From: an uncultured virus (IMG/VR IMGVR_UViG_3300029305_000620)
Lineage: Duplodnaviria; Heunggongvirae; Uroviricota; Caudoviricetes
Strand: one strand, 5' to 3'
Virus record (IMG/VR): IMGVR_UViG_3300029305_000620
DNA: 36,813 nucleotides
A program made the position numbers and the translations under genes. Position 1 is the stretch's first letter; each line of letters begins with the position of its first letter. Below, piece after piece: positions 1-30,809 of the stretch. The notes under the pieces were generated by a model. It searched no databases. It saw only the letters and a list, made by a program, of their open reading frames with translations, and was not told the DNA's origin.

Positions 1-102
1 CTTGGCGCTCAGGGTCGCCGGATTCATACCCATCGCGATGGCGAAGGCGGTTTCCGTCTTGAAAACCTCGCGAATCTTGCCACGCAGCATATCGTAACTC
101 AT
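1..102 (-). CDS. Cro-like HTH regulator (DUF739-like), 3' end outside window
   Basis: Manual translation MSYDMLRGKIREVFKTETAFAIAMGMNPATLSAK; RBS AGGAAGGAG upstream; divergent from cI-like gene. Confidence 0.8.
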   Translation of the reverse strand, partial: MSYDMLRGKIREVFKTETAFAIAMGMNPATLSAK

Positions 103-125
103 GCTCTCACGCTCCTTCCTGGGTA

Positions 126-258
126 GTTTTGATTTCAAAACCCGAAAACATGATAATACTACTCGCAAGTAATGTCAAGGGGGAAAATTGAATTTTCACG
201 ACTTTTATTATAAAATTTTCGTGTTTTTATTGTATTTTCTCAATTTCGGTGGTATATT
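126..258. promoter_or_regulatory. Divergent lysis/lysogeny switch promoters with candidate operator
   Basis: Minus: TTGACA(178-173)-17bp-TATCAT(155-150). Plus: TTGTAT(230-235)-17bp-TATATT(253-258). Near-palindrome GTTTTGATTTCAAAAC at 126-141. Confidence 0.7.
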
Positions 259-283
259 ATACCCATCGCAAAGGAGGGTTAGT

Positions 284-655
284 ATGGCAAAATTTGAGCG
301 GATAGACAGCACAGCGAATCGCCTCCGCATCGCTATGGAGGAAGCCGGGAAGCGTCAGGTGGATCTCGTTCGAGAAACCGGCATTGATAAAGGCGCTCTA
401 TCCAACTACCTGAAAGGCCGATATGAGCCAAAGCAGGATGTAGTCTACAAACTGGCGGTTGCATTGAACGTATCTGAAATGTGGCTGTGGGGTTATGACT
501 GCAAGAAGGAAAGAACACAAGAGCAAAAAAACAACGACCTGCTTGCGCAGATCGTTGTAAGGCTTCGTAATGACAAAGCGTTTTTCGACGCTGTGTCTTC
601 TCTCTATAAGATGGACTCAGACAAGCTCGAAAGTCTATCGGCTTTTCTGAAGTAA
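284..655 (+). CDS. CI-like XRE-HTH repressor (123 aa, no S24 peptidase domain)
   Basis: RBS AAGGAGG before ATG 284; HTH-XRE pattern RQVDLVRETGIDKGALSNYLKGRYEP...LAVALNVSEMWLWG. Confidence 0.85.
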   Translation: MAKFERIDSTANRLRIAMEEAGKRQVDLVRETGIDKGALSNYLKGRYEPKQDVVYKLAVALNVSEMWLWGYDCKKERTQEQKNNDLLAQIVVRLRNDKAFFDAVSSLYKMDSDKLESLSAFLK

Positions 656-736
656 TTTGAGTATGAAGTCCAGCAAGGCCAAATCTTCACACTTTTCGAG
701 CAACGCGTTTATTGATTTCAAGAGTCTTTCTCTCAA
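635..736 (-). CDS. 33-aa peptide convergent with cI; candidate antirepressor
   Basis: GGAGGA RBS, TTG start, MRERLLKSINALLEKCEDLALLDFILKLLQKSR; own promoter with SOS box. Confidence 0.7.
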   Translation of the reverse strand: MRERLLKSINALLEKCEDLALLDFILKLLQKSR

Positions 737-772
737 AGCAAATTCCTCCTTTAATTCAATTTTATCGGGGCA

Positions 773-821
773 GAACGCGTGTTCATGGGTCATTGTACCC
801 TATTCCAGTTATCTCTGACAA
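773..821 (-). promoter_or_regulatory. Promoter with LexA (DinR/Cheo) box
   Basis: GAAC-GCGT-GTTC at 773-784; TTGTCA(821-816)-18bp-TACAAT(797-792). Confidence 0.7.
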
Positions 822-1011
822 ATGGGAATCGTTCCCTTGCCAGTATAGTACAATCATGGGCCGGATCAGTGCCCGCCGACACAAAAAGACATGAAAGGAG
901 GTGGTTGTTTCAAAAATGGAAAATACCACTTTTGAGAATAAAGGAGGTGACACTTTCAGCTTTGCAACAAACATTGCAACATAGTTGCAACCACACAGGA
1001 GGAAAAATGAA

Positions 1012-2547
1012 ATGTCAGAGGTTTACCTAACATCCGACGAGTACATCATGTACCTTCGGAAATCGAGGGCGGACAATCCGCTGGAATCAGTAGAAGAAGT
1101 GCTGGAGAAGCACGAAAAGATGCTGCAGGACTTCGCGTTGAGAACGCTGGGCGGATACATCCCCGAGCACTGCATCCTGCGGGAGATCGGATCGGGGGAG
1201 ACAATCGCCGAACGTGAGAAAATGCAGGAGGTGCTTGCACGGGTAGAAGACCCAAAGGTGCGCGGCTGCATCGTCGCTGATAGCTCCCGCCTTTCCCGTG
1301 GCGACCTCTCCGAATGCGGCACCGTCGTCAATGCTTTTCGGTATACGCGGACGGAGATCATCACGCCGCGCATTACCTACGACCTGACGAACGAGATGCA
1401 CCGGCAGTTTTTCGAGCAGGAGCTCATGCAGGGCCGCTCATACCTGGAATACACAAAGCGCGTGCTGCTGATAGGCCGGGAGAATGCCATCAAGCAAAAA
1501 GGCGCATACATCGGCAACATCCCGCCGTTCGGCTATGATAAGGCCGTCATCGACGATGTGCACACCCTCAAACCGAACGATGCTGCTGCTGCCGTGCTGA
1601 TGGCCTTTGAGATGTACGTCAACGAGGGTAAGACCTACCTACAGATCGCCCGCCACCTTGACAGCCTGGGCATCAGGCCAACCGTGAGCAAGGTGTGGGA
1701 GAAATCGTCCATCCGGGCAATGCTACAAAACAAGCACTATATCGGCATGGTATACTTCGGGAAGTACAGAACAGAAAAGACCATCGAAAACGGCCAGGTC
1801 GTGAGCCGATCCGTGCGACAGCCGGATGACAAGGTGATCATTGCCAAGGGCAAGCACCAGGCAATCGTGCCGCTGGAGCTGTTCGAGGCGGCCCAGGAAA
1901 AGATGGACAATAACCCTCGTGCGAAATGGGACATGCCCCTGCAGAATCCGCTGGCCGGCTTGATCGTCTGCCATAGCTGCGGCAAAGCGTTGGCACAGCA
2001 CCCGTACCCACACGCAGAGACACGCATCGAGTGCCGGAACCGACACGGCTGCAAGGCAAACTCCGCCAAGCTCCGCGAGGTGATTGAGGCCGTGGCCTTC
2101 GCGCTGGAAATGGAACACCTGCCGGACATGGAGGTCAAGCTGCACAACGATGAGGGCAAGTCCGCCAGCATCCAGAAGAAGCTGATCGAAAAAATGAACG
2201 CCGAAATGGCTGAACTGCACGCCAAGGAAGAACGGCAGCATGATCTGCTGGAAAGTGGCACTTACTCCGAGGAAGTGTTCGTGAAGCGGAACAAAGCCCT
2301 TCATGCTCAGATGGAGGAGCTGCGGTCGAAGATTTACGAGGCCAAGCAGAACATGCCCAAGGAGATCAACTATCAGAACAAGATCATCAAGCTGCAGGAT
2401 GCCATCGCTGGCCTGCGGGATGACACAATCTCCGCAGAACAAAAAAACCGCCTCTTGAAGGCGATAGTCAAGAAAATAGAGTATGAGTTCATCGAGCGCA
2501 AGCGCCGCCAGACGAGGTTCCGGCTGCACATCACCTTGCAGCTCTAA
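1012..2547 (+). CDS. Large serine recombinase (phage integrase)
   Basis: Catalytic YLRKSR, SRLSR, recombinase-domain PPFGY, zinc ribbon CHSC...CRNRHGC, coiled coil; RBS AGGAGG before ATG 1012. Confidence 0.95.
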   Translation: MSEVYLTSDEYIMYLRKSRADNPLESVEEVLEKHEKMLQDFALRTLGGYIPEHCILREIGSGETIAEREKMQEVLARVEDPKVRGCIVADSSRLSRGDLSECGTVVNAFRYTRTEIITPRITYDLTNEMHRQFFEQELMQGRSYLEYTKRVLLIGRENAIKQKGAYIGNIPPFGYDKAVIDDVHTLKPNDAAAAVLMAFEMYVNEGKTYLQIARHLDSLGIRPTVSKVWEKSSIRAMLQNKHYIGMVYFGKYRTEKTIENGQVVSRSVRQPDDKVIIAKGKHQAIVPLELFEAAQEKMDNNPRAKWDMPLQNPLAGLIVCHSCGKALAQHPYPHAETRIECRNRHGCKANSAKLREVIEAVAFALEMEHLPDMEVKLHNDEGKSASIQKKLIEKMNAEMAELHAKEERQHDLLESGTYSEEVFVKRNKALHAQMEELRSKIYEAKQNMPKEINYQNKIIKLQDAIAGLRDDTISAEQKNRLLKAIVKKIEYEFIERKRRQTRFRLHITLQL

Positions 2548-2561
2548 AGTTATACCCAATA

Positions 2562-2607
2562 TGTACATCATGGGGAGGCAGGTTCACCCGCTTACCTATG
2601 ATGTACA
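2562..2607. other. Candidate intact attP site
   Basis: 46-bp imperfect inverted repeat (22-bp arms, 18/22 match, outer 10 bp TGTACATCAT perfect) around central TC, 14 bp after integrase stop. Confidence 0.75.
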
Positions 2608-2631
2608 CACCAAAGAAAGGTAGTGTTATCA

Positions 2632-2817
2632 ATGGCTGAGAAGAAAATGACCATCCGTGAAAAGCTGGAACTGATGAAGGAGATCGCCCAGAGGAACAGG
2701 GAGCGCCGGCAGGAGTTTCTGGAGAAGGAAAAGCGGGAACGGAACGAAAAGCTGTTTGACCTGTACGTGAACGGCATGATCTCACGAGAAGACTTTGAGC
2801 GCAGATATAAAAAGTGA
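2632..2817 (+). CDS. Small charged SHOCT-like protein; candidate recombination directionality factor
   Basis: RBS GAAAGG; C-terminal LFDLYVNGMISREDFERR; immediately after attP-like site. Confidence 0.65.
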   Translation: MAEKKMTIREKLELMKEIAQRNRERRQEFLEKEKRERNEKLFDLYVNGMISREDFERRYKK

Positions 2818-2820
2818 AAG

Positions 2821-2851
2821 AAGGGCCGGGGAGAAATCCCTGGCTCTTTTT
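2821..2851 (+). terminator. Intrinsic terminator
   Basis: AAGGGCCGGGGA-GAAA-TCCCTGGCTCTT stem with T run. Confidence 0.75.
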
Positions 2852-2902
2852 CTGTTTGCGAAAATTTCTTTGAAAAAAGTCAGAAAACTTGTATTTTGCC
2901 CC

Positions 2903-2931
2903 TTGCATTTCCACGGAATCCGTGGTAATAT
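2903..2931 (+). promoter_or_regulatory. Sigma-A promoter of accessory operon 1 with palindromic operator
   Basis: TTGCAT-17bp-TAATAT; CCACGGAATCCGTGG (2911-2925) lies in the spacer. Confidence 0.8.
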
Positions 2932-2985
2932 AGTAAACGTAGACAGGAACCCCGCACTACCGACCGCACGAAAGGAAGCAAGACA

Positions 2986-3300
2986 ATGACTATCACCTTC
3001 ACCCGCGAATCCATTGCCGCCCACCTCGCCGACTGCCAGTCCATGGAGCACGACACCCAGGACACCTGCACCTACTACCTGCACATGACCGACGAGCAGC
3101 AGATGCTCAAGGGCTTCTATGACGCAGACATCACCTTCACGGCTGACCGCGACTTCACCCCCTACATGGACGACGAGGACTTCTCCCGCTTCTACGATGA
3201 CGAGGTGCTGACCAACGAGGGCTTCGCCGCCGTCGTTGACAGCCTCTACGAGCAGGCGGTGGCCTACTTCACCGAGCTGGCCGCCTGGGACGAGGAATAA
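2986..3300 (+). CDS. Highly acidic 104-aa hypothetical protein
   Basis: RBS AAAGGA; 25 D/E vs 4 K/R by manual count. Confidence 0.85.
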   Translation: MTITFTRESIAAHLADCQSMEHDTQDTCTYYLHMTDEQQMLKGFYDADITFTADRDFTPYMDDEDFSRFYDDEVLTNEGFAAVVDSLYEQAVAYFTELAAWDEE

Positions 3301-3311
3301 GCAAAGAGGAC

Positions 3312-3336
3312 ACCGGGCGGGGCGGTATAACCCCGC
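3312..3336 (+). promoter_or_regulatory. Pre-RBS H-type pseudoknot motif 1
   Basis: ACCG-G-GCGGGG-CGGT-ATAA-CCCCGC. Confidence 0.65.
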
Positions 3337-3352
3337 ATGGAGGACAGAAACC

Positions 3353-3652
3353 ATGAAGAAGTATCGCGTGAATGAATCGGAGCATTTCAACCTGCACAGC
3401 ATGTATGAACGGCTGAAGGTGATGGAGATCGAAATGGAGTGCGACGAACGCCCGTGGGATGATTCCATTTTCGATAGGATCGAAGAAGTCGAAAACCTGA
3501 TGGACAAGGCATATTGTGTCGGTGCACTCGTTGATTGGCCCACGCTGAAGCGTATCCGGGAGATTCAGGCTGAACGGAAGATGATTCGTTATAATCGCTG
3601 CTTAGCTGCTGGCCACTCTGAACGAGATGCTGCGGTTGCATTCCAGCTATAA
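3353..3652 (+). CDS. Hypothetical protein (99 aa)
   Basis: RBS GGAGGA, ATG 3353 (MKKYRVNESEHF...). Confidence 0.8.
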   Translation: MKKYRVNESEHFNLHSMYERLKVMEIEMECDERPWDDSIFDRIEEVENLMDKAYCVGALVDWPTLKRIREIQAERKMIRYNRCLAAGHSERDAAVAFQL

Positions 3653-3656
3653 ACAA

Positions 3657-3682
3657 CTCCCCGCCCCGGAGGTCACGAGGGC
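3657..3682 (+). promoter_or_regulatory. Pre-RBS pseudoknot motif 2
   Basis: CTCC-CC-GCCCC-GGAG-GTCAC-GAGGGC (bulged A in stem 2). Confidence 0.5.
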
Positions 3683-3694
3683 AGAAAGGTCACC

Positions 3695-3922
3695 ATGAGC
3701 AAGCAATTCTTCATCATGTTCGAGAGCGACCGGATTGTGTGCGGAAGCAATGACCACATGCTGTGCAACGCAAGCACGATCAGGAGTGCGAAGGCAGCTA
3801 TTAGGAGTGCGAGGAAGAAGGACTACATCGCGGAGCACAACCCGAGAAACTTCCGTGTGTATGACTCCTGGGCCGATGGGCCGGAAGATCAGCACGTTCC
3901 TTGTGTGTACCAAGAAGATTGA
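3695..3922 (+). CDS. Hypothetical protein (75 aa)
   Basis: RBS GAAAGG; ORF track. Confidence 0.8.
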   Translation: MSKQFFIMFESDRIVCGSNDHMLCNASTIRSAKAAIRSARKKDYIAEHNPRNFRVYDSWADGPEDQHVPCVYQED

Positions 3923-3929
3923 CAGATCC

Positions 3930-3957
3930 GCCCCGCCGGGAGGCATCATATCCCGGC
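3930..3957 (+). promoter_or_regulatory. Pre-RBS pseudoknot motif 3
   Basis: GCC-CC-GCCGGGA-GGC-ATCATA-TCCCGGC. Confidence 0.6.
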
Positions 3958-3972
3958 AGAAAGGATGGAACC

Positions 3973-4392
3973 ATGAGGAACAAGCTCCCATACATCTGGG
4001 CCTACCTCGACGGCAAGAAGCTGGTCGAAGTGATCCAGGCAGCCCTCGACAACAACATGCTGGTTGATGATGTCAAAAAGCGGCTCATCGCCGAGAACCC
4101 CGGCCACGAAGTCACGTTCAAGGTCGTAACGAATCAAAGGAGGAAAAACATGAACACCAAGAAATGGACTGACACCCTGCCCGCTGATGTGTATGAGCGC
4201 TTGTGTAACTGCAGTACGATCAGGGCTGATCTGCCCGCGCTTGTCAACGCCAAATGGGAAGACTACAAGCGCAGAGGGAAGAACGACTACCTTGACAAGC
4301 AAGATGCGCTCGTCGAGGTACTTGAGCTGCTGGACGAAAATGGGCGTGATTTCTACCTGAGCAAAGATCAGTGGGATGCCCTGTGTAAATAA
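3973..4392 (+). CDS. Hypothetical protein, apparent in-frame fusion of two small genes (internal start 4150)
   Basis: RBS GAAAGGA before ATG 3973; second strong RBS AAGGAGG before in-frame ATG 4150. Confidence 0.75.
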   Translation: MRNKLPYIWAYLDGKKLVEVIQAALDNNMLVDDVKKRLIAENPGHEVTFKVVTNQRRKNMNTKKWTDTLPADVYERLCNCSTIRADLPALVNAKWEDYKRRGKNDYLDKQDALVEVLELLDENGRDFYLSKDQWDALCK

Positions 4393-4398
4393 CACTCC

Positions 4399-4424
4399 GC
4401 CCCGCCGGAGGCATCGTATCCGGC
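4399..4424 (+). promoter_or_regulatory. Pre-RBS pseudoknot motif 4
   Basis: GCC-CC-GCCGGA-GGC-ATCGTA-TCCGGC. Confidence 0.6.
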
Positions 4425-4438
4425 AGAAAGGACGATCC

Positions 4439-4672
4439 ATGAAAACCACTTGCAAGATGTACCGCTTCTGTTTCTACTTCGACAAGCCCATCCCTGAAAT
4501 TGCAGAGGATGGAACCCACAAGACACGGGCAAGCTGCCGATCCGTCAAGGGGGCTGAGAATTATGCCAGGAAGCATGCTGAGATATTCACCAGGCACCTC
4601 TACGCTCCGACCAAGTGCGTTATCGAATATAACACGACCACCGGAAAGAAGTCCCGCGAAATCACATTCTGA
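4439..4672 (+). CDS. Basic hypothetical protein (77 aa)
   Basis: RBS GAAAGGA, ATG 4439 (MKTTCKMYRF...). Confidence 0.75.
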   Translation: MKTTCKMYRFCFYFDKPIPEIAEDGTHKTRASCRSVKGAENYARKHAEIFTRHLYAPTKCVIEYNTTTGKKSREITF

Positions 4673-4679
4673 CACAACC

Positions 4680-4707
4680 TGCCCGCCCGTGGGCATTGTA
4701 CGCGGGC
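4680..4707 (+). promoter_or_regulatory. Pre-RBS pseudoknot motif 5
   Basis: TGCC-C-GCCCGTG-GGCA-TTGTA-CGCGGGC; 4681-4715 identical (35 bp) to 6692-6726. Confidence 0.65.
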
Positions 4708-4721
4708 AGAGAGGAAACACC

Positions 4722-5282
4722 ATGCACAACATCTGCTATCGCTCATTCCCTGCAAGTACCTCGCGCAATGAGATCATCAGCACCGTGCAGCACATCGTCA
4801 GCACCAGCGGCGACGGATACGGCACGGAGCACGTCATTTTCCATCCGATGCTCACCTGCGACGACTACGAGGCCGCAAAGGAGTTCCTTCACCAGCACGA
4901 CGACGGCTTCTACCCCGGCGTGGCGGTCAAGTATTACGACCTGGCAAGCATGGCCGCCAGCAAACAGGTCGAAGCGCTGCATGCAAAGATCAGCGAAACC
5001 AGGAAAGCACGTCAGGAGTACATGGCTGAGCATACTGTGAAGAAATTCAAGGCCGACTTTGTTGGCTGTCAGAAATGCGGGTCGAAGCTGAGCCGCGTGC
5101 TGCTCCCAAGCGACTATTGCCCGCTCTGCCGGAACGACCTTCGGAGCGCCACCACGCTTGACCGCATTGCCAGGTACGACGCGAAGATCAAGGATCTGGA
5201 GCAGAAAGTCCGGCAGGAGCGCATCAAGTCGAAGGACAAGGCCAAGGTCTGCTGGCTTGTGATGTTCGAGTACCATTCTTAA
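4722..5282 (+). CDS. Hypothetical zinc-ribbon/coiled-coil protein (186 aa)
   Basis: CQKC...CPLC between coiled-coil segments; RBS GAGGA. Confidence 0.8.
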   Translation: MHNICYRSFPASTSRNEIISTVQHIVSTSGDGYGTEHVIFHPMLTCDDYEAAKEFLHQHDDGFYPGVAVKYYDLASMAASKQVEALHAKISETRKARQEYMAEHTVKKFKADFVGCQKCGSKLSRVLLPSDYCPLCRNDLRSATTLDRIARYDAKIKDLEQKVRQERIKSKDKAKVCWLVMFEYHS

Positions 5283-5288
5283 CCACCA

Positions 5289-5314
5289 GCCCCACCCGCC
5301 GGGCAAAAGGCGGG
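5289..5314 (+). promoter_or_regulatory. Intergenic pseudoknot motif 6
   Basis: GCCC-CA-CCCGCC-GGGC-AAAA-GGCGGG. Confidence 0.6.
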
Positions 5315-5347
5315 AATAAATATCCCAAATCGAAAGGAATTGTAACT

Positions 5348-5608
5348 ATGAAAAAAGACAACGAAATGAAGGCTGCTGTATACATGCGTGTTGGGAGCAA
5401 AGAACAACTCGCGGGCGGCGAAAAGGAAATGGACTTCAAGGAGCTGCGCAGGCTGTCAGGCATGACGCAAAAGGAGTTCCAGGATTATTTCGGCATTCCG
5501 AAACGGAACATCGAAGACTGGGATCGTGGCATTGCGAAGTGCAAGCCGTACCTGATTGATCTGATGCTGTATAAACTGAAAAAGGAAGGAATCATCCGGG
5601 ACGAATAG
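5348..5608 (+). CDS. Small XRE-HTH regulator (Aca-like position); alternative start 5429
   Basis: FKELRRLSGMTQKEFQDYFGIPKRNIEDWDRG HTH pattern; last gene of operon 1. Confidence 0.85.
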   Translation: MKKDNEMKAAVYMRVGSKEQLAGGEKEMDFKELRRLSGMTQKEFQDYFGIPKRNIEDWDRGIAKCKPYLIDLMLYKLKKEGIIRDE

Positions 5609-5620
5609 TCCCGGATTTTT
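5594..5620 (+). terminator. Intrinsic terminator ending operon 1
   Basis: ATCCGGGAC-GAATA-GTCCCGGAT plus T run. Confidence 0.75.
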
Positions 5621-5656
5621 CTTTGAAAAAAATCTGAAAAAACTTCATTTTCCCCC

Positions 5657-5686
5657 TTGACGAAACCACGGAATCCGTGGTATTAT
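5657..5686 (+). promoter_or_regulatory. Sigma-A promoter of accessory operon 2 with same operator
   Basis: TTGACG-18bp-TATTAT; CCACGGAATCCGTGG at 5666-5680; shares upstream A/T tract and AAAGGAAGCAAGACAATGA leader end with promoter 1. Confidence 0.8.
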
Positions 5687-5743
5687 ATACACGTGGAAAG
5701 GAACACAGGGCAACAGCCCGGACGAAAGAAAGGAAGCAAGACA

Positions 5744-6076
5744 ATGAAGGCTATGAACACCATGATGTACGTGAGCAACCTGATCGAGCAGATGGCCGAG
5801 TACCAGAGCATCATCAAGAACGCCAAGGACTACGACGAGGCCAAGCGGTGGGCAAGCCGGATGATCGGCTTCATCGACGGTGCGCACACCGTCGCGAACA
5901 CCATGATCTGCAAGGAGAACAACGACTTCACCGGCGAGATGAGCGACGTGCTTGCGCACTGGGAAGCCAGAGTTTATGAAACCCTGGCCCACAAGGCCAT
6001 CGAGTTCAAAATGGATCACGACCTGATCATGAAGCTCCTTACCACCCGCGACGAAATCAATGCCACCATCGGCTGA
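5744..6076 (+). CDS. Helical hypothetical protein (110 aa)
   Basis: RBS AAAGGA, ATG 5744 (MKAMNTMMYV...). Confidence 0.8.
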   Translation: MKAMNTMMYVSNLIEQMAEYQSIIKNAKDYDEAKRWASRMIGFIDGAHTVANTMICKENNDFTGEMSDVLAHWEARVYETLAHKAIEFKMDHDLIMKLLTTRDEINATIG

Positions 6077-6086
6077 CACCCACGAC

Positions 6087-6111
6087 ACCGGGCCGGGCGG
6101 TATAACCCGGC
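6087..6111 (+). promoter_or_regulatory. Pre-RBS pseudoknot motif 7
   Basis: ACCG-G-GCCGGG-CGGT-ATAA-CCCGGC; compensatory pair change vs motif 1. Confidence 0.65.
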
Positions 6112-6122
6112 AGGAGGACACC

Positions 6123-6272
6123 ATGAAGCAGTACATCTACACCGAAAAGGGCGCGGCCATCATGGCCCGCCGCTTCCCCGGCATCAAGGCCGGCGACACC
6201 TACGACCGCCCCGTCACCAAGGACATCCTCAAGCAGTACGTCAAGGCTGGCTTCATTGCCAAGAAGAAATAA
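6123..6272 (+). CDS. Small basic hypothetical protein (49 aa)
   Basis: RBS AGGAGG, MKQYIYTEKGAAIMARRF... Confidence 0.75.
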   Translation: MKQYIYTEKGAAIMARRFPGIKAGDTYDRPVTKDILKQYVKAGFIAKKK

Positions 6273-6285
6273 GGAGGACACCAAC

Positions 6286-6684
6286 ATGAAGAAGATCACC
6301 GGTTACCTGATCGACGTGGCCAACGAGAAGGCCAGCGTCACGACCATCGACTACTCCCTGCAGGGCTTCTACGACATCCTGGGCTGCCGCCTGGTCGAGA
6401 TGCCCACGCGCTGGATCGGCGCACGCAAGGGCCGCCCCTACGTCATCATCTGCGACGAGGAGGGCATGTTCGCAGACGCTCCCAAGGTCAGCGCCATCGA
6501 CAACATGGGCCAGGTGATGCTGGTCGGCAACCTGTTCATTGTAAAGGCCGGGCTTGAGGGTGAGCTGGACAGCCTCGACGAGGACGACATCAAGTACCTG
6601 GAGCGCTTCATCAGCCCTGAAGCCACCCGCATGTTCCGCAGCCCCTACCCCATGCTCCACCAGTGCGAATACTACGGCCGATAA
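6286..6684 (+). CDS. DUF3846-like protein
   Basis: SLQGFYDILGC.LVE...IICDEEG...LVGNLFIV pattern; RBS AAGGAGG. Confidence 0.7.
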   Translation: MKKITGYLIDVANEKASVTTIDYSLQGFYDILGCRLVEMPTRWIGARKGRPYVIICDEEGMFADAPKVSAIDNMGQVMLVGNLFIVKAGLEGELDSLDEDDIKYLERFISPEATRMFRSPYPMLHQCEYYGR

Positions 6685-6691
6685 ACAGACC

Positions 6692-6718
6692 GCCCGCCCG
6701 TGGGCATTGTACGCGGGC
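6692..6718 (+). promoter_or_regulatory. Pre-RBS pseudoknot motif 8
   Basis: GCC-C-GCCCGTG-GGC-ATTGTA-CGCGGGC. Confidence 0.65.
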
Positions 6719-6734
6719 AGAGAGGATGATCCCC

Positions 6735-7034
6735 ATGATGTACACCATTTACATGCTTCCCCGTGAACACGCCAACACCTTCATGGACTACCGCTGGGCG
6801 ATGGCCCACGGCGGCGTGAACAAGTCCGAATACGAGCGCGTCTACACCGGCTACATCGACCCGCGAGAGAACGAAAGCGTGCAGGATGTGCTGGAGCTCA
6901 TCTTCATGGAGCACAACGCGCCGGATCGCCCCAACAGCTACCACATGCGCAGCCTGAGTATTTCCGACCTGGTGGAGCTGGAAGGCTCCGGCACCTGGTT
7001 CTGCGACTCTTTCGGCTTCAAGAGGATCAACTGA
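6735..7034 (+). CDS. YodL-domain protein
   Basis: YERVYTG...LELIF..HN..RP..Y..RSLSISDLV...WFCDSFGF signature. Confidence 0.85.
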   Translation: MMYTIYMLPREHANTFMDYRWAMAHGGVNKSEYERVYTGYIDPRENESVQDVLELIFMEHNAPDRPNSYHMRSLSISDLVELEGSGTWFCDSFGFKRIN

Positions 7035-7058
7035 CGATCAACTTACCATCAACTTACG
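7026..7058 (+). repeat. 3 x 11-bp tandem repeat
   Basis: ATCAACTGACG / ATCAACTTACC / ATCAACTTACG. Confidence 0.8.
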
Positions 7059-7072
7059 AAAGGACGATCACC

Positions 7073-7303
7073 ATGACCGACACCATAACCCGCCCACAGT
7101 TTGACCAAAGGATGCGCGAATACTTCTTCGACAAGGGATGGCGCATCAACGACGACGGCCTGCTGGTTCTCACAGCAAAGCAGGCCAGCAAGGCCGACCT
7201 GGAGCGCAGCATTCGCAACCCGGCCAAGCGCGTCCTCATGATCCCCTGCCTGCACGGCTGCGCCCTCCTTTTTGAGGGCCAGCACTTCATCATCGTAAAC
7301 TGA
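7073..7303 (+). CDS. Hypothetical protein (76 aa)
   Basis: RBS GAAAGGA; ORF track. Confidence 0.8.
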   Translation: MTDTITRPQFDQRMREYFFDKGWRINDDGLLVLTAKQASKADLERSIRNPAKRVLMIPCLHGCALLFEGQHFIIVN

Positions 7304-7335
7304 CGACACGCCCACAGGGCAGAAAGGACAGCACC

Positions 7336-7488
7336 ATGACAGCCGCCGCATCACTTGCCCGCGTGAATGAGATCACCGCGAACCGGAAGGCCCGCAAGCG
7401 CAACACCGAGACCACCCCCTGGTGGGTAGAGCCTATGATCAGCGCCATCCTGGCGGTCATGGTCTGGCTGCTCTTTGTGGGATGCTGA
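7336..7488 (+). CDS. 50-aa single-TM membrane peptide
   Basis: RBS GAAAGGA; MTAAASLARVNEITANRKARKRNTETTPWWVEPMISAILAVMVWLLFVGC (below ORF-track cut-off). Confidence 0.7.
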   Translation: MTAAASLARVNEITANRKARKRNTETTPWWVEPMISAILAVMVWLLFVGC

Positions 7489-7496
7489 ATAAACGC

Positions 7497-7531
7497 AAAA
7501 AAGGGAGAGGCCGAAGCCTCTCCCTCTTTTT
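7497..7531. terminator. Bidirectional intrinsic terminator
   Basis: A run-AGGGAGAGGC-CGAA-GCCTCTCCCT-T run. Confidence 0.85.
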
Positions 7532-7600
7532 GTTGCTGCGGTGGTGCTCGCAGCTGTTGCGCCATACACAAGCCAGAAGCGTGGTATATGGATCTGTCGC
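7497..7600 (-). ncRNA. Candidate ~100-nt small RNA
   Basis: Perfect TTGACA(7635-7630)-17bp-TATAAT(7612-7607) promoter, two hairpins, terminator, no RBS-led ORF. Confidence 0.55.
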
Positions 7601-7640
7601 GGCAGTATTATACATCCGCCGCCCCGACTTGTCAAGTTGC

Positions 7641-7680
7641 CTTATGTTCTTGACTTATCTCTTACGTTCTTGACTTATCC
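7641..7680. repeat. 2 x 20-bp tandem repeat just upstream of the sRNA -35
   Basis: CTTATGTTCTTGACTTATCT / CTTACGTTCTTGACTTATCC. Confidence 0.8.
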
Positions 7681-7686
7681 CTTGTG

Positions 7687-8523
7687 TTATTTCAGCAGGG
7701 CCGCCCAGGTCAGCGGGCCACAGTACCCGTCAACCTCCAGCCCCTTGGCCTTCTGGAACTTCTTCACGGCTGCCAGCGTTTTCGGGCCGAAGCTGCCGTC
7801 CACGTCGCCGCAGGAATAGCCAAGCGCATTCAGGAGCCGCTGCAGCGTCTTCACCTGATTGCCCTTGCTGCCGTTCTTCAACACGTTCAATTCTACCATG
7901 CACGTTTTCCCTCCAGATTCGCCCGCTGTGGCCCCTCCGGCCTCGGGGACGGGTATTTGTTCATCCTTCGCCGCAGGCGGCTCTACGGGCGTTTCTGCGC
8001 CGTCCAGGACACCAGGAAGCGCGGCCCAGTGCGTCCAGCTGCGGGAGGACACCTTTGTCTTGACCACGCCGTAGGAGTGCCCGCGCGCTTCCACCGCATA
8101 ACCGCCGCCGATATAAACGCCTGTGTGGCTCATGCGGCCCTTGTCATTGATGTGGTACAGGATCACGCCCGGCACATCCGGCAGGCTGTCAATGGTGCCC
8201 TTCTTGTCCCACGCGGTTTTCGTCCATTGGCTGTTCGCGCCGCTGACCAACTCCTGCCCGGCGGCCTTGCAGCTGTAGCGCGTGAGCTGGGCGCAGTCAT
8301 ACGCCTGCTTGCCGTTGTACTTGCAGCCCGTGCAGGAGCTTTGCTTGCCGCTCAGGACGGGGCAGTTGTTGTACATGTTCGACTTGTACTCCGGGTAGGC
8401 TTTGGCGCGCTCCTTGCGGAAAGCGGGCGTGCATTTCTTCTCGCCATAGCCGCCGTAGATATACGCGCACCCGATCTTGCTGATGGCATAGTTCGCGATG
8501 GTCTGACCTTTGATTGTTGCCAT
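7687..8523 (-). CDS. Endolysin: NlpC/P60-like catalytic domain + C-terminal PG_binding_1 domain
   Basis: YDCAQL, HTGVYIG, EARG catalytic motifs; LKNGSKG.QVKTLQRLL...DGSFGPKT.AAVKKFQ...VDG.CGPLTW. Confidence 0.9.
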   Translation of the reverse strand: MATIKGQTIANYAISKIGCAYIYGGYGEKKCTPAFRKERAKAYPEYKSNMYNNCPVLSGKQSSCTGCKYNGKQAYDCAQLTRYSCKAAGQELVSGANSQWTKTAWDKKGTIDSLPDVPGVILYHINDKGRMSHTGVYIGGGYAVEARGHSYGVVKTKVSSRSWTHWAALPGVLDGAETPVEPPAAKDEQIPVPEAGGATAGESGGKTCMVELNVLKNGSKGNQVKTLQRLLNALGYSCGDVDGSFGPKTLAAVKKFQKAKGLEVDGYCGPLTWAALLK

Positions 8524-8736
8524 GTTTTTTCCCTCCGCTCTCATAAAACTATGAAAAATCGCATAGTTTTTGCACAAAGTTACCTCTTTGCACATCGCAT
8601 CGTGGCAACTATGTGCAAAAAAACGCGGTTTTTTTACATCAAGTCGAACTTTTGATGCTTCAAATGTTCAACTTGACGCGTTTTTGATGTATTGATGTAT
8701 CACTTAACGCGTTGATTACGCGTTGATTGATGTAAT

Positions 8737-8766
8737 AAAAAAAGAGGCGGATTGCTCCGCCTCCCT
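8737..8766 (-). terminator. Intrinsic terminator between holin and endolysin
   Basis: GAGGCGGA-GCAA-TCCGCCTC followed by T7 on minus strand. Confidence 0.75.
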
Positions 8767-8767
8767 T

Positions 8768-8980
8768 TTATTCGATTTTGCCGGTTTCCAGCTCAGGCAG
8801 GCCCGCGACGCTGGTCAGCAGGGACAGGATGCCGGACAGCAGCGCAGCGCTGCCGACCATGATCCAGTTGACCTCGCCCATCACGGCAGAGGTGCCGATG
8901 GTCGCCACAGCGGTCTGGGCGACGGTCTTGATCGCGCGGACACCCGCAGCCTTGATCCACTTCACAAACTGATCTTTCAT
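8768..8980 (-). CDS. Holin (r1t-like)
   Basis: WIKAAGVRAIKTVAQTAVA...ILSLLTSVAGLPE pattern. Confidence 0.85.
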   Translation of the reverse strand: MKDQFVKWIKAAGVRAIKTVAQTAVATIGTSAVMGEVNWIMVGSAALLSGILSLLTSVAGLPELETGKIE

Positions 8981-8984
8981 GTTG

Positions 8985-9302
8985 TTAATCCCCTTTCTCA
9001 GGTGGTTCGGTCGGGAGTGCCAGGAATTTGACGTGGATGTCATCCATCACGCCGTTGGCACCCAGTGCATGGTATTGAGCCCAGCAGTTTTCAAAATTCT
9101 GCCGGGCGTAGATCGGAGCATAGCCCCGGTCTGCCCATTTGTTGTAGTCGGCGATCATCTGCGCACGCAGAAGGGCCTGGATGCCCAGCCGCACGGCCTT
9201 GATCTGATTCTGCTGGCTGCGGAAGAAGCCGACGACAAGCCCGCCTATCGTGAGCAGGATCGTCGGAATACCCAGCACGCAGAGCCATTGGTATGTGGTC
9301 AT
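8985..9302 (-). CDS. Membrane-anchored lysis-module protein (holin-associated)
   Basis: N-terminal TM; GIQALLR...YHALGANG motif; position before holin. Confidence 0.75.
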   Translation of the reverse strand: MTTYQWLCVLGIPTILLTIGGLVVGFFRSQQNQIKAVRLGIQALLRAQMIADYNKWADRGYAPIYARQNFENCWAQYHALGANGVMDDIHVKFLALPTEPPEKGD

Positions 9303-28795: not shown

Positions 28796-29203
28796 TTATT
28801 CCACGATGGCCCACCCTGCCGGATACTGCTCCGGCGTGTAGACGTTCGCGTCAAGCAGGGACTTGTACAGCATATCCTGCCACCAGCCGCACTCGTCCTT
28901 CGCAAAGGCCGTGCCAGCCGTGATGACCTCCGGGATGATGCGGTAGCCGCCCTTGTAGGCGATGTCCTCCCACAGACCGGGTGTGTGGTTGGGGTCGTTC
29001 TGTTCCGTGTCCCACAGGTCGGAGGCGGCGCGTTTGATAACGCCGTTCCAGTTGATGCGCGTGCCAGCGCGGACGAGGGAGCCGTCCTGCTTGAGGGCCG
29101 GGAACAGCTCTGCCGCGTTGCTGGCATCCTTGTCGTCAAGGGAGGCCGATGCCTGTACGATGTAGGGGCGCAGCTTCCGCGCCTTTGCAATGTAATCGTT
29201 CAT
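28796..29203 (-). CDS. Tail-associated protein, distant paralogue of 10778-11218
   Basis: C-terminus LYKSLLDANVYTPEQYPAGW resembles LYRSLIDGNTWAPDAYPAGW. Confidence 0.8.
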   Translation of the reverse strand: MNDYIAKARKLRPYIVQASASLDDKDASNAAELFPALKQDGSLVRAGTRINWNGVIKRAASDLWDTEQNDPNHTPGLWEDIAYKGGYRIIPEVITAGTAFAKDECGWWQDMLYKSLLDANVYTPEQYPAGWAIVE

Positions 29204-29206
29204 GCG

Positions 29207-29437
29207 TTACTCCTCCTCGCCAACAAGGATGTCGTATGCCTTGGCCTTCGCTTCGACCTCGGACAGGTCGGTGACTTCCTCCGGCATGACCTCGCCCTCG
29301 GTGTAGACCCTGCCGGAATCCAACGGGTCGATGGCCTCGGAGTAGGAAACGCCGTCACGCACCACGAAACGGTTGGAGTCGCTGTAGGTGCGGATGAAGT
29401 CACGGTTTCGGATGGTTACTCGCTCGGTGATAATCAT
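29207..29437 (-). CDS. Small tail-module hypothetical protein
   Basis: RTYSD...G..Y.EAIDP....R.YTE pattern; RBS AGGAGG. Confidence 0.8.
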   Translation of the reverse strand: MIITERVTIRNRDFIRTYSDSNRFVVRDGVSYSEAIDPLDSGRVYTEGEVMPEEVTDLSEVEAKAKAYDILVGEEE

Positions 29438-29449
29438 GGTCGCACCTCC

Positions 29450-30559
29450 TTAATATGCCTTGATGTAGTCAGCGTAGGTTGCCCAGTTGGTCGCCGCAAT
29501 CCACTCGTCGTAGAGGGCCGCAGGGACACGGATTTCGCAGTCGGCGGGGATGCCGGTGAATGCGTTTGTATTTGCCAGCGACGGTACTGCTGTGTGAGCT
29601 GTGAAATCGTAGAAAGCAACGCCATTGCAACCGTAGAAAGACCTCGCTTCGATAGAGATGACTTGCGCTGGGACGATCACGGATGCAAAACTGGAGCAGG
29701 AAGAGAAAACTGAGTTTCGATATGATGTAACGCCTCTCTCTGGATAAGACACGAAAGACAAGCCGTAACAATTTGCAAACTGGTTCGACATAGTTGCCAT
29801 TACAGTTTCTCCGGTCGGAACTGTAATATATTTCAGCCCAGTGCATCCGTAGAAAGTATATGCTCCTTGCAAAACAACATTGGCGGGGATCGATACGGAT
29901 GCGAGGCTGATACAGCTATGGAAAGCAACGCCTTCAAGTTGAACATTTGCGCCTATTTCAGCTTTACGGACTGCATAAAGGTAATTTTTATTGCGGTTGT
30001 CCGAACTTTCTGAGTGCCGCAAAACACAGGAACCACCTGTGCCTGTCATACCAAGAAGTCCCATCTCGCCATCCACCGTCAACCGGATAACGTAATCACC
30101 CGGCGCGGCGTATGCATGTTCCGGTGTCCACTTGGTCGTGCTTATATCCGTACCCGTCAGCACATTCGGCTCCGTCCCATCGCCCCAGTCCACCGTTACC
30201 GTGCCATTCACACCCACGCCCAGCATGGGGCTGGTGCGGCCTTCCTGCAAGGTGATATACAGGCGGGTCGTGCCGTCATCGGTGGTGTACATCGCACCGA
30301 TATTCATGGCGCGGGTCAGGCCCTTCACGCCCTCCAGCGACCAGTTCCAGCCCTGAAACACAAGCCCGGGATGCTCCGGGCCAGCAGGGAGTTCGGACAG
30401 GGCTTGCGCTTCTGCTACCGTGTAGGCATGAACGCAAGTGCCGTCGTAGTCGTAGAAGTTGACCTCCTTGGGACTGACACCAGCAGACCCGCCGCCCGAG
30501 CCGGAGGAGCCCCCGCCACTACCGAACAGCGTTGCCATGATCAAGTCTTTTCCGACCAT
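29450..30559 (-). CDS. BspA-type leucine-rich repeat protein (candidate receptor-binding protein)
   Basis: AFHSCISLASVSIP, TFYGCTGLKYITVP, FANCYGL repeats; VNFYDYDGT N-domain; VTVDWGDG; ATNWATYA end. Confidence 0.8.
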   Translation of the reverse strand: MVGKDLIMATLFGSGGGSSGSGGGSAGVSPKEVNFYDYDGTCVHAYTVAEAQALSELPAGPEHPGLVFQGWNWSLEGVKGLTRAMNIGAMYTTDDGTTRLYITLQEGRTSPMLGVGVNGTVTVDWGDGTEPNVLTGTDISTTKWTPEHAYAAPGDYVIRLTVDGEMGLLGMTGTGGSCVLRHSESSDNRNKNYLYAVRKAEIGANVQLEGVAFHSCISLASVSIPANVVLQGAYTFYGCTGLKYITVPTGETVMATMSNQFANCYGLSFVSYPERGVTSYRNSVFSSCSSFASVIVPAQVISIEARSFYGCNGVAFYDFTAHTAVPSLANTNAFTGIPADCEIRVPAALYDEWIAATNWATYADYIKAY

Positions 30560-30563
30560 CTCA

Positions 30564-30809
30564 TCACCCCCTGAACTTCGTCCACACGCCCGACGGACTC
30601 AGCATGTACCCCACGCTCAGGTCGGCGGTGTAGGCGACGCTTCCCCGCGCCGGGATAACCGTCATATCAGCCACGTCCGTCACCGGCTGACCATACGCGG
30701 GGAGGCCGGTGATATCCGCCTCCGTGTCCGCCGTGATCTCCACCTTCTGGTGGATGGTGCTGTTGCCGATCAGGCCCGTGCCGGTCATGCTTTCAATCTT
30801 TATCGCCAT
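30564..30809 (-). CDS. Hypothetical protein
   Basis: RBS AAAGGAG; ADTEADI..LP...GSVAY..D...YML...G.W pattern. Confidence 0.75.
   Translation of the reverse strand: MAIKIESMTGTGLIGNSTIHQKVEITADTEADITGLPAYGQPVTDVADMTVIPARGSVAYTADLSVGYMLSPSGVWTKFRG

What the first reader, a model, noticed from the sequence alone, without database searches (positions are those of the whole stretch)
2870..7531. Twin acr-aca-like accessory operons under one palindromic operator
Seen: two promoters (2903, 5657) share the perfect palindrome CCACGGA-A-TCCGTGG between -35 and -10, similar upstream A/T tracts and an identical AAAGGAAGCAAGACAATGA leader end. Operon 1 ends with a small XRE-HTH gene and a terminator, and the 13 genes are small and mostly of unknown function. 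Established: Aca HTH proteins are encoded at the end of anti-CRISPR operons and repress strong promoters through inverted repeats. Inference: the HTH represses both operons after an early burst, and the cargo is enriched in anti-defence or host-takeover proteins.
Basis: partly seen in the sequence, partly recalled or inferred. Interest (0 to 1): 0.8.

Follow-up and report, generated by a model that had tools for sequence, protein, structure and literature searches.

The report
Self-repressed twin accessory operons in phage
A temperate gut phage carries two small operons whose promoters hold the same palindrome, and comparison with about 160 related sequences indicates that the small DNA-binding protein at the end of the first operon shuts both off; what the other twelve proteins do is unknown.

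Summary
CCACGGAATCCGTGG fills the -35/-10 spacer of two homologous terminator-promoter-leader cassettes, at 2911-2925 and 5666-5680. They head 7 and 6 small genes, and operon 1 ends with an XRE-type HTH gene (5348-5608) and a terminator.

The repressor inference is strongly supported by comparison, not by experiment. In 63 of 80 viral loci that encode an HTH relative, a consensus promoter upstream on the same strand holds CAC-NN-A-W-T-NN-GTG in its spacer; 3 such sites lie downstream and none on the other strand.

One recognition-helix residue (D57 here) tracks base 4 of the half-site:
- Asp goes with G in 31 of 31 non-redundant pairs.
- Asn goes with C or T in 31 of 31.
- Gln goes with T in 2 of 2, and Glu with A in 3 of 3.

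A sister phage has the same twin layout with another operator, another recognition helix and other cargo.

The anti-defence reading is untested. No cargo protein matches a known anti-defence, defence or solved family; only DUF3846 and YodL-like domains are recognisable. The early burst is also inferred.

This is a new HTH/operator family of the known acr-aca-like kind.

The parts
2818..2851 (+). Hairpin plus T-run (terminator-like) that closes the integrase/SHOCT-like unit and insulates P1
   Evidence: Read from the sequence. It aligns with the terminators of the other three cassettes. It is not listed by the scan (one G-T pair in the stem).
2864..2902 (+). A/T-rich upstream tract of P1 (TTTCTTTGAAAAAA...), conserved in P2 and in related cassettes
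   Evidence: similar tracts appear upstream of the promoters in L018, L034, L118, L168 and L169.
2903..2931 (+). Promoter P1: -35 TTGCAT, 17-nt spacer holding the operator, TG-extended -10 TAATAT
   Evidence: Not listed by the scan (-35 matches 3 of 6).
2911..2925 (+). Operator copy 1, CCACGGAATCCGTGG
2932..2985 (+). Leader of operon 1, ending in the shared block GAAAGGAAGCAAGACA before the ATG
2986..3300 (+). Operon 1 gene 1: 104 aa, very acidic (pI 4.05; 25 D+E against 4 K+R), no known family or fold
3353..3652 (+). Operon 1 gene 2: 99 aa, unknown
3695..3922 (+). Operon 1 gene 3: 75 aa, unknown
3973..4392 (+). Operon 1 gene 4: 139 aa, unknown. An internal strong RBS and ATG at 4150 would give an 80-aa product.
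4439..4672 (+). Operon 1 gene 5: 77 aa, basic, unknown
4722..5282 (+). Operon 1 gene 6: 186 aa, two CxxC pairs after a coiled stretch, unknown
5348..5608 (+). XRE-type HTH, 86 aa, the proposed repressor. The core domain is residues 28-83; the recognition helix is 52-60, with the specificity residue D57.
5594..5616 (+). Terminator of operon 1 (overlaps the end of the HTH gene)
5657..5686 (+). Promoter P2: -35 TTGACG, 18-nt spacer holding the operator, TG-extended -10 TATTAT
   Evidence: 10 of 12, TG yes
5666..5680 (+). Operator copy 2, CCACGGAATCCGTGG
5744..6076 (+). Operon 2 gene 1: 110 aa, unknown
6123..6272 (+). Operon 2 gene 2: 49 aa, basic, unknown
6286..6684 (+). Operon 2 gene 3: 132 aa, DUF3846
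   Evidence: E 1.1e-9; phrog_3777, unknown function
6735..7034 (+). Operon 2 gene 4: 99 aa, YodL-like
   Evidence: E 2.2e-14
7073..7303 (+). Operon 2 gene 5: 76 aa, unknown
7336..7488 (+). Operon 2 gene 6: 50 aa with a hydrophobic C-terminal stretch. It is the only cargo gene with a homologue in the sister phage's slot.
   Evidence: (46% identity in L253/L254)
7497..7530 (.). Bidirectional terminator that closes operon 2

Best explanation
The region is a pair of insulated accessory operons of a temperate, contractile-tailed phage of gut Clostridia. They lie between the serine integrase and the lysis genes. Each operon starts with a copy of one portable cassette: terminator, A/T tract, sigma-70-type promoter, leader and start codon.

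The promoter spacer, and the TG of the extended -10, are occupied by a 15-bp palindrome. The 86-aa XRE-type HTH protein encoded last in operon 1 most likely binds this palindrome as a dimer through helix 52-60. It would then occlude RNA polymerase, repressing its own operon (negative feedback at P1) and the regulator-less operon 2 (at P2).

Shown here:
- the anatomy of the two operons;
- the family-wide linkage of HTH and operator;
- a residue-to-base specificity relation.

Inferred:
- physical binding, dimer formation and repression;
- that a promoter free of repressor fires on DNA entry and is then shut down.

The twelve cargo proteins are fast-swapping accessory proteins of unknown function. 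An anti-defence or host-takeover role is the leading guess (about 35-40%) but has no direct support.
For: (1) Exact-palindrome scan of viral contigs. Of 84 loci, 9 have the palindrome between a -35 and a -10. Five of these 9 are unrelated in their flanks: L008, L044, L018, L034, L064. All 5 encode an HTH relative (41-49% identity) downstream on the same strand. None of the 75 loci with a non-promoter match does.

(2) Among 80 viral loci chosen by HTH homology, 63 have a promoter-embedded CAC-N7-GTG palindrome upstream on the HTH strand. Only 3 such sites lie downstream and 0 on the other strand, in equal search space of 344 kb against 349 kb.

(3) Covariation (non-redundant pairs).
- Viral set: Asp 15 (14 G/G, 1 G/A); Asn 22, all C or T at both half-sites.
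- Bacterial-genome set, examined after the rule was formed: Asp 16 (14 G/G, 1 G/A, 1 A/G); Asn 9, all C or T; Gln 2 T/T; Glu 3 A/A.
- The variable inner bases change symmetrically in both half-sites.
- On the best tree, 8 changes of residue coincide with 8 changes of base.

(4) The HMM alignment places this residue opposite the residue of a 434-repressor derivative that corresponds to Gln33. From recall, Gln33 contacts operator base pair 4.

(5) The sister phage L254 (integrase 75% identical) has the same layout: terminator, promoter, cargo, HTH, terminator, promoter, cargo. Both of its promoters carry ATCCCCC(G/A)ATGGGGTAT, its HTH has another recognition helix (IPLKSLQKWE, 25% identity to the window's HTH), and its cargo differs.

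(6) The phage's immunity region has its own palindrome, GTTTTGAttTCAAAAC, twice.

(7) The HTH is the last gene of the chain in 37 of 61 viral operons, and first in 2 of the 56 chains that include it. Cargo is highly diverse: 95 non-redundant proteins fall into 53 clusters.

(8) The AlphaFold model gives a confident XRE fold for residues 28-83.
Against: - No binding, reporter or expression data exist. No RNA run was available.
- 17 of 80 viral loci and 49 of 81 HTH genes in bacterial genomes showed no promoter-embedded CAC box by my pattern. Some are cut by contig ends and some have other operators, as L254 does.
- The tree rests on 53 columns. Only 2 independent residue switches lie on strongly supported branches, where the sign test cannot reach significance.
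- The near-identical pair L102/L103 is weakened because L102's operator lies 4.5 kb upstream and outside the called gene chain.
- The outer CAC/GTG could be conserved partly because GTG supplies the extended -10.
- P1's -35 is poor (3 of 6).
- The window's HTH scores below Pfam's HTH_3 threshold (18.1 against 23 bits).
- Nothing links the cargo to defence or counter-defence. None of the window's 12 cargo proteins has a homologue in the other 159 HTH-family loci.
Confidence: 0.75

Rival explanations
1. The regulatory circuit is the same, but its purpose is lysogenic. The operons are prophage-expressed morons (superinfection exclusion, defence or host-fitness genes). The autorepressor holds them at a steady low level in the lysogen, rather than giving an early anti-defence burst.
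For: The operons sit beside the integrase, on the strand of the CI-like and integrase genes and opposite to the replication and late genes. They are insulated by terminators. The last gene of operon 2 encodes a 50-aa protein with a hydrophobic stretch, and it is the only cargo gene kept in the sister phage. HTH modules are often next to a large serine integrase: 11 of the 159 other loci have one within reach.
Against: No cargo protein matched a PADLOC defence model at a meaningful score. Consensus host-type promoters would also fire at once on infection. DUF3846 and YodL-like domains are otherwise typical of proteins of invading elements (YodL: passages of PMC5512222; for DUF3846 this is my recollection and comes from no call).
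Confidence: 0.3
2. The HTH is the antitoxin of a toxin-antitoxin pair with reversed gene order (HigBA/MqsRA-like). The gene upstream of it would be a toxin, and the palindrome the usual antitoxin operator.
For: The HTH shows weak likeness to MqsA and HigA2 domains: TIGR03830 at E 0.001; MqsA C-domain and HigA2 among the top structural rows. Many relatives form two-gene units with the HTH second.
Against: TIGR03830 scores 18.8 bits against a cut-off of 61.8. The structural rows are all at E 0.1-1 and are tied with C proteins, ImmR and Aca proteins. The gene just upstream of closely related HTH genes belongs to many unrelated clusters, and 1 to 8 genes can precede the HTH. No toxin family was found in 46 cargo representatives. 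A regulator-less second operon does not fit a toxin-antitoxin pair.
Confidence: 0.05
3. The palindrome is not the HTH's site. It is bound by the phage CI-like repressor or a host factor, or it is only a promoter element.
For: The GTG arm doubles as the TG of an extended -10, which could explain part of its conservation. No binding data exist.
Against: A recognition-helix residue covaries with base 4 in both half-sites in two data sets. The left arm has no promoter role yet mirrors the right arm. The immunity region uses another palindrome. Operator and HTH are swapped together in L254. Two adjacent modules in one Ruminococcus flavefaciens genome pair CACT with an Asn-type HTH and CACG with an Asp-type HTH.
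Confidence: 0.05

Closest known systems
acr-aca operons in which one Aca regulator controls its own and a neighbouring operon. Sources: Feussner et al., NAR 2026, PMC13551039 (abstract and sections 22-23 read); Aca11/Aca13, PMC12282945 (abstract in a search listing only); Aca1-10 as repressors, PMC9410906 (passages read).
   Same: A strong promoter with an inverted repeat overlapping the core promoter. Variable small genes come first and a small DNA-binding regulator last. A second regulator-less operon nearby carries the same site. Cargo is mostly unannotated.
   Different: There is no recognisable anti-CRISPR or other anti-defence gene. The HTH shows no significant sequence match to Aca proteins with solved structures. 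Hosts are gut and rumen Clostridia. The operator fills the -35/-10 spacer exactly. A one-residue specificity relation is visible across the family.
434 repressor/Cro-type XRE HTH proteins and their ACAA-N6-TTGT operators
   Same: The same five-helix fold class. A weak profile match to 434 repressor (E 0.05-0.07). A short palindromic operator. The specificity residue aligns with the position of Gln33.
   Different: This is not the immunity repressor of this phage. It is only about 58 aa with no extra dimerisation domain. The 434 contact map is recalled, not tested here.
Controller (C) proteins of restriction-modification systems, e.g. C.Kpn2I
   Same: C.Kpn2I is the top structural row (4yba, E 0.13). 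C proteins are small XRE proteins that bind palindromes in their own promoters.
   Different: There are no methyltransferase or endonuclease genes in the window's operons or in the 46 cargo representatives. The score is not significant.
PeSL (promoter-early stem-loop) cassettes of T4-type phages
   Same: Repeated promoter-plus-hairpin cassettes flank small, swappable early genes. Here the promoter-leader cassette is duplicated, and a hairpin-plus-RBS motif precedes most cargo genes.
   Different: PeSL cassettes have no dedicated repressor or operator. The phage type and host are different.

Membership tests
acr-aca operon / Aca protein | A small DNA-binding regulator is encoded in the operon, typically after the cargo genes | tested here: met
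   The HTH gene is the 7th and last gene of operon 1. It is last in 37 of 61 related operons.
acr-aca operon / Aca protein | An inverted repeat overlaps the operon's core promoter | tested here: met
acr-aca operon / Aca protein | The regulator binds that repeat and represses transcription | not testable with these tools
   Supported only indirectly, by co-occurrence and covariation.
acr-aca operon / Aca protein | At least one gene of the operon is a validated or recognisable anti-CRISPR | tested here: not met
   No hit in Pfam, PHROGs, NCBIfam or PADLOC for the 12 cargo proteins. No credible PDB sequence hit for the 3 window cargo proteins searched (the E 1.1e-5 row has no stretch that passes on its own). 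No fold match for gene 1. dbAPIS and Acr-specific models were not available.
acr-aca operon / Aca protein | Sequence membership in a named Aca family (Aca1-14) | tested here: inconclusive
   Profile against PDB sequences: Aca10 (7xi5) E 0.057, Aca3 (9vt3) E 0.97, others absent. No Pfam PF08965 (Aca2) hit. HMMs of the remaining Aca families were not on hand.
XRE / Cro-CI HTH (Pfam HTH_3, PF01381) | Match to the HTH_3 profile and a five-helix fold | tested here: met
   The window protein is below threshold (18.1 against 23 bits). However, 10 of its 19 homologues carry a precomputed PF01381 hit, the L254 relative scores 29.8 bits, and the AF2 model has the fold with pLDDT above 90 for residues 28-83.
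Type II antitoxin (MqsA/HigA-like) | A conserved cognate toxin gene lies adjacent | tested here: not met
   The upstream neighbours belong to many unrelated clusters. TIGR03830 scores 18.8 against a cut-off of 61.8 bits.
R-M controller (C) protein | Adjacent restriction endonuclease and methyltransferase genes | tested here: not met
   None in the operons or in the 46 cargo representatives.

The most novel reading that the evidence does not exclude
This HTH/operator family is a natural kit of orthogonal repressor-promoter pairs in phages and prophages of gut and rumen Clostridia. One recognition-helix residue sets base 4 of the operator: Asp with G, Asn with C or T, Gln with T, Glu with A. Modules can therefore sit side by side without cross-talk. 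The family would also mark hundreds of swappable small genes, including the twelve here, that are new inhibitors of bacterial immunity or host-takeover factors in a group of phages where almost none are known.
Probability: 0.3. Interest if true: 0.75.

Novelty: new member of a known kind. Interest (0 to 1): 0.6.

Why it matters
Self-repressed accessory operons are the main handle by which anti-defence genes are found ("guilt by association"). So far the anchors come mostly from Proteobacteria, Listeria and Streptococcus.

This HTH/operator pair is a candidate anchor for phages of gut and rumen Clostridia. Pattern scans confirmed 330 viral and 288 bacterial-genome stretches that encode a relative. 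I found none of six operator strings in print, and I did not find the family in the Aca papers I read.

The residue-to-base relation is directly testable with one point mutation and one symmetric operator change. If it holds, it offers compact orthogonal repressor/promoter parts for Gram-positive anaerobes.

For this window, the practical result is a ranked list of twelve small proteins to screen, headed by the very acidic first gene.

Tried and rejected
- **Own genome.** The window's assembly is not held. I used the near-identical virus record G001 instead.
- **Annotated collections.** blastn of the whole region against annotated phages gave only two weak 4% matches. tblastn of the DUF3846 protein against plasmids gave no match. 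The HTH against annotated phages gave 10 weak hits: 9 unannotated fecal contigs and one Streptococcus satellite phage "DNA-binding protein".
- **Function libraries.** PHROGs, NCBIfam and PADLOC gave no function for any cargo protein. The only PADLOC row was PDC-M21B at E 0.007 with no passing stretch.
- **ESM Atlas.** Gene 6 has only "hypothetical protein" clusters, all under 0.9. Gene 1 had no usable hit.
- **Fold of gene 1.** Foldseek against PDB gave a best E of 1.5. VIA-align wide gave a best Z of 4.2, below the tool's stated noise level. No conclusion can be drawn on its fold.
- **PDB sequence searches** of five proteins (three of the window's cargo, two cargo representatives from related loci) found nothing credible. 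The PCNA-fusion row at E 1.1e-5 for gene 6 has no stretch that passes on its own.
- **Rfam** on 1-9000 gave only two sub-threshold rows, at E 0.07 and 0.18.
- **Guilt by association for the window's own cargo.** No homologue appears in the other 159 HTH-family loci. In eight loci with a related integrase, only the last small gene recurs, and in two of them, L253 and L254.
- **R-M controller reading.** Rejected: no R-M genes are present.
- **Earlier notes of this scan.** Look-ups by place and by sequence returned nothing.
- **Literature.** The search on Aca plus Clostridia taxa returned only unrelated gut-microbiome papers.

Full report
**1. Context**

The window is most of a temperate phage with a contractile tail.
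- On the minus strand, from 36787 down to 7687, lie large structural genes: capsid protein E, tail terminator, tube/sheath-related proteins, baseplate J and tail fibre. A holin and an NlpC/P60 plus PG-binding endolysin follow.
- On the plus strand lie an HTH_3 protein of 155 aa (188-655), a large serine integrase (985-2547; phrog_95, E 3e-74), a 61-aa SHOCT-like gene (2632-2817), and then the region of the finding.
- Window positions 1-29382 are 100% identical to positions 28777-58158 of a 58-kb IMG/VR record, G001, which CheckV rates complete.
- The rest of G001 carries replication and early genes on the minus strand: Gp157, ParB-like, PAPS reductase, SSB, YopX and a methylase.

The two operons therefore lie between the integrase and the lysis cassette. 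They are convergent with the late genes and on the strand of the integrase.

**2.

*Operator and promoters.*
- CCACGGAATCCGTGG occurs exactly twice in the window and twice in G001.
- Each copy fills the spacer of a promoter. P1 is TTGCAT-17-TAATAT and P2 is TTGACG-18-TATTAT.
- The GTG of the right arm supplies the TG of an extended -10.
- The scan lists P2 but not P1, whose -35 matches only 3 of 6.

*Duplicated cassette.*
- P1 and P2 are two copies of one cassette. They align at 79% mean identity.
- Three blocks are identical: TTTCTTTGAAAAAA, the palindrome, and a 20-nt RBS/start block.
- Each cassette is preceded by a terminator-like hairpin: 2818-2851 (read by eye) and 5594-5616.

*Genes.*
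- Gene calling by RBS and start codon gives 7 + 6 genes of 49-186 aa.
- Operon 1 ends with the HTH gene. Operon 2 ends at a bidirectional terminator.

**3. Linking the HTH to the palindrome**

*Test 1: scan by operator.*
- I scanned 2.9 million viral contigs for the exact 15-mer. Most of the 84 loci are chance matches inside genes.
- Nine loci have the palindrome between a -35 and a -10. Four of these are copies of this phage.
- The other five (L008, L044, L018, L034, L064) have unrelated flanks. All five encode an HTH relative of 41-49% identity downstream on the same strand.
- None of the 75 remaining loci does.

*Test 2: scan by protein.*
- An alignment of 23 homologues found 330 viral stretches; the best 80 were kept.
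- In 63 of the 80, a near-consensus promoter lies upstream of the HTH gene on its strand with CAC-NN-A-W-T-NN-GTG in the spacer.
- Only 3 such sites lie downstream and none lies on the opposite strand, in equal search space.
- The inner NN varies between loci and changes symmetrically in both arms. This is what a dimeric protein site predicts and a promoter element does not.
- Some loci add a second site about 41 bp upstream (L100, L101, L103, L105, L159). L064 has a second site near the start point.

**4. A residue-to-base relation**

The motif IPKR(T/N)IE-X-W lies in helix 52-60 of the AlphaFold model.
- *Viral set.* X = Asp goes with CACG (15 non-redundant pairs: 14 G/G, 1 G/A). X = Asn goes with CACC or CACT (22 of 22).
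- *Bacterial-genome set.* This set was fetched afterwards and analysed with the same script. Asp: 16 pairs (14 G/G, 1 G/A, 1 A/G). Asn: 9 of 9 pyrimidine. Gln: 2 of 2 T. Glu: 3 of 3 A. There is one Ser-type gene, which shares an operon with an Asp-type gene.
- *This window.* Its protein has Asp57 and its operator has CACGG.
- *Tree.* With the residue masked, the tree shows 8 changes of residue and 8 of base on the best topology, all concordant. It has only 53 columns, and only 2 independent pairs lie on strongly supported branches. The association is therefore strong, but its number of independent origins is not firmly counted.
- *Link to 434 repressor.* The HMM alignment to a 434-repressor derivative puts X opposite the residue that corresponds to Gln33. 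From recall, Gln33 reads operator base pair 4. The Asp-cytosine and Gln/Asn-purine pairings fit common recognition chemistry (recalled).

**5. Natural swap experiments**

- *Sister phage.* Phages with an integrase 75% identical (L253, L254) have the same slot and layout: integrase, SHOCT-like gene, terminator, promoter, three genes, HTH, terminator, promoter, more genes, terminator, lysis. Cassette frames, leader end and hairpin-RBS motifs are homologous.
- Both of L254's promoters carry ATCCCCC(G/A)ATGGGGTAT. Its HTH (64 aa, HTH_3 at 29.8 bits) is only 25% identical to the window's, with another recognition helix. Only the last small gene is shared.
- *Other cases.* L155 also has twin promoters around its HTH. 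In a Ruminococcus flavefaciens genome (L194), two modules sit side by side: CACT with an Asn-type HTH and CACG with an Asp-type HTH.
- *Integrase relatives without the module.* Relatives at 70% integrase identity (L255, L259, L260) have other small genes in the slot and no HTH of this family. The slot is therefore a variable accessory region.

**6. Rival binders**

The immunity region has its own palindrome, GTTTTGAttTCAAAAC. It occurs twice, beside the Cro-like and CI-like genes. This makes CI an unlikely binder of the CCACGG palindrome.

**7. What the HTH is**

- Pfam gives only a sub-threshold HTH_3 hit for the window protein. Ten of its 19 homologues carry PF01381.
- Many homologues are about 58 aa and start at the window protein's Met28. 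Four keep the 27-residue N-terminal extension, which the model predicts with low confidence.
- The profile against PDB sequences finds uncharacterised XRE proteins, ICEBs1 ImmR, 434 repressor, HipB and C proteins. Aca10 appears at E 0.057 and Aca3 at E 0.97.
- Foldseek ranks C.Kpn2I, ImmR, MqsA-C, HigA2, Aca7, Aca2, Aca10 and Aca1 together at E 0.1-1.
- It is a generic XRE fold, with no demonstrable membership in a named Aca family.

**8. The cargo**

*In related operons.*
- One to eight genes of 35-180 aa precede the HTH. The HTH is last in 37 chains, not last in 19, and absent from 5 chains.
- The 95 non-redundant cargo proteins fall into 53 clusters.
- Of 46 representatives, 40 have no Pfam family. 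The six with one carry zinc-ribbon-type domains, a class II tRNA-synthetase core with anticodon-binding domain, a GIY-YIG homing-endonuclease type, sub-threshold HTH domains, or a pepsin-inhibitor-like repeat.

*In the window.*
- Only DUF3846 and YodL-like domains are recognised.
- The YodL domain is described as typical of polyvalent proteins of Firmicutes conjugative elements. It is suggested to act on the MreB cytoskeleton rather than on restriction (PMC5512222, passages).
- Gene 1 is very acidic (pI 4.05) and belongs to a small family of 20 close homologues. It folds confidently (pLDDT 84.9, pTM 0.80) but matches no solved fold above noise.

Nothing links the cargo to defence or counter-defence. 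The anti-defence reading rests on architecture alone.

**9. Comparison with what is known**

- All ten Aca families tested repress their own promoters (PMC9410906, passages).
- A 2026 paper predicts that most Aca families also control neighbouring operons. It shows this for Aca14 and cites it for Aca11 and Aca13 (PMC13551039, abstract and sections 22-23).
- The twin-operon logic is therefore in print.
- The apparently new elements are this HTH/operator family, its host range in gut and rumen Clostridia, and the residue-base relation.
- A full-text search for six operator strings found no paper. The search covers open-access texts only, and I did not open any paper's supplements.
- Earlier notes of this scan describe similar cassettes in unrelated phages. 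I did not test them.

**10. Verdict**

| Claim | Status or my estimate |
|---|---|
| Observation | confirmed |
| HTH represses both promoters | about 0.85 |
| Early burst | plausible, unshown |
| Anti-defence or host-takeover cargo | about 0.35-0.4 |

Noticed in passing
window 3301-7335 (intergenic regions); motif at 3680, 3955, 4422, 4705, 6716, 7318: Eight of the 11 intergenic gaps hold a GC-rich hairpin (-10 to -19 kcal/mol) whose 3' arm abuts the ribosome-binding site. The motif GGCAGARAGGA occurs 6 times in the operons and once elsewhere, against 1.58 expected by chance; 0 of 100 shuffles reach 7. A 43-nt copy is repeated at 4674-4715 and 6685-6726. The same motif precedes genes in L018, L034, L110, L169 and L254. 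It may be a cassette boundary or a translational or stability element.
   Followed up: partly
window 7492-7635, minus strand: A perfect consensus promoter (TTGACA-17-TATAAT, 7635..7607) points at the bidirectional terminator 7530-7497. It would give an RNA of about 100 nt with three hairpins (z-score -6.1, much of it from the terminator). It has no Rfam match. This is a candidate small RNA convergent with operon 2.
   Followed up: partly
window 7642-7681: Two tandem 20-nt direct repeats (TTAYGTTCTTGACTTATCYC) lie just beyond the stop codon of the endolysin gene (7687-8595). Their purpose is unknown; an attachment site was not examined.
   Followed up: no
window 5348-5428 (HTH residues 1-27): The N-terminal extension contains AAVYMRVGSKEQ. 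From recall, this resembles the catalytic-serine motif at the start of serine recombinases. It is kept in 4 homologues, is absent from the 58-aa forms, and is modelled with low confidence. It could be a remnant of a recombination event.
   Followed up: no
window 3973-4392: This single 139-aa frame has a strong internal RBS and an ATG at 4150. It could be two products, or a fusion of two cassettes.
   Followed up: no
G001 28660 and window 126 (L004 8660, 8902): The immunity region carries the palindrome GTTTTGAttTCAAAAC twice, beside small minus-strand HTH-like genes and the plus-strand 155-aa HTH_3 gene. These are probably the CI/Cro operators.
   Followed up: partly
L003 4169-6613 (G001, minus strand): An 814-aa protein fuses a Mu-F-like head-morphogenesis domain to an ADP-ribosyltransferase exoenzyme domain (Pfam E 2e-15). 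At the corresponding place the window has other large genes.
   Followed up: no
L122 5644-6333: Downstream of one HTH module lies a 229-aa protein. By eye its N-terminus recalls Cas5-type proteins, but it has no Pfam hit.
   Followed up: no
window 28810-30637 against G001 1671-3495: The LRR_5 protein region matches the other end of G001 at 96.9% identity, and the window then continues with genes absent from G001. The two assemblies differ in this part.
   Followed up: no
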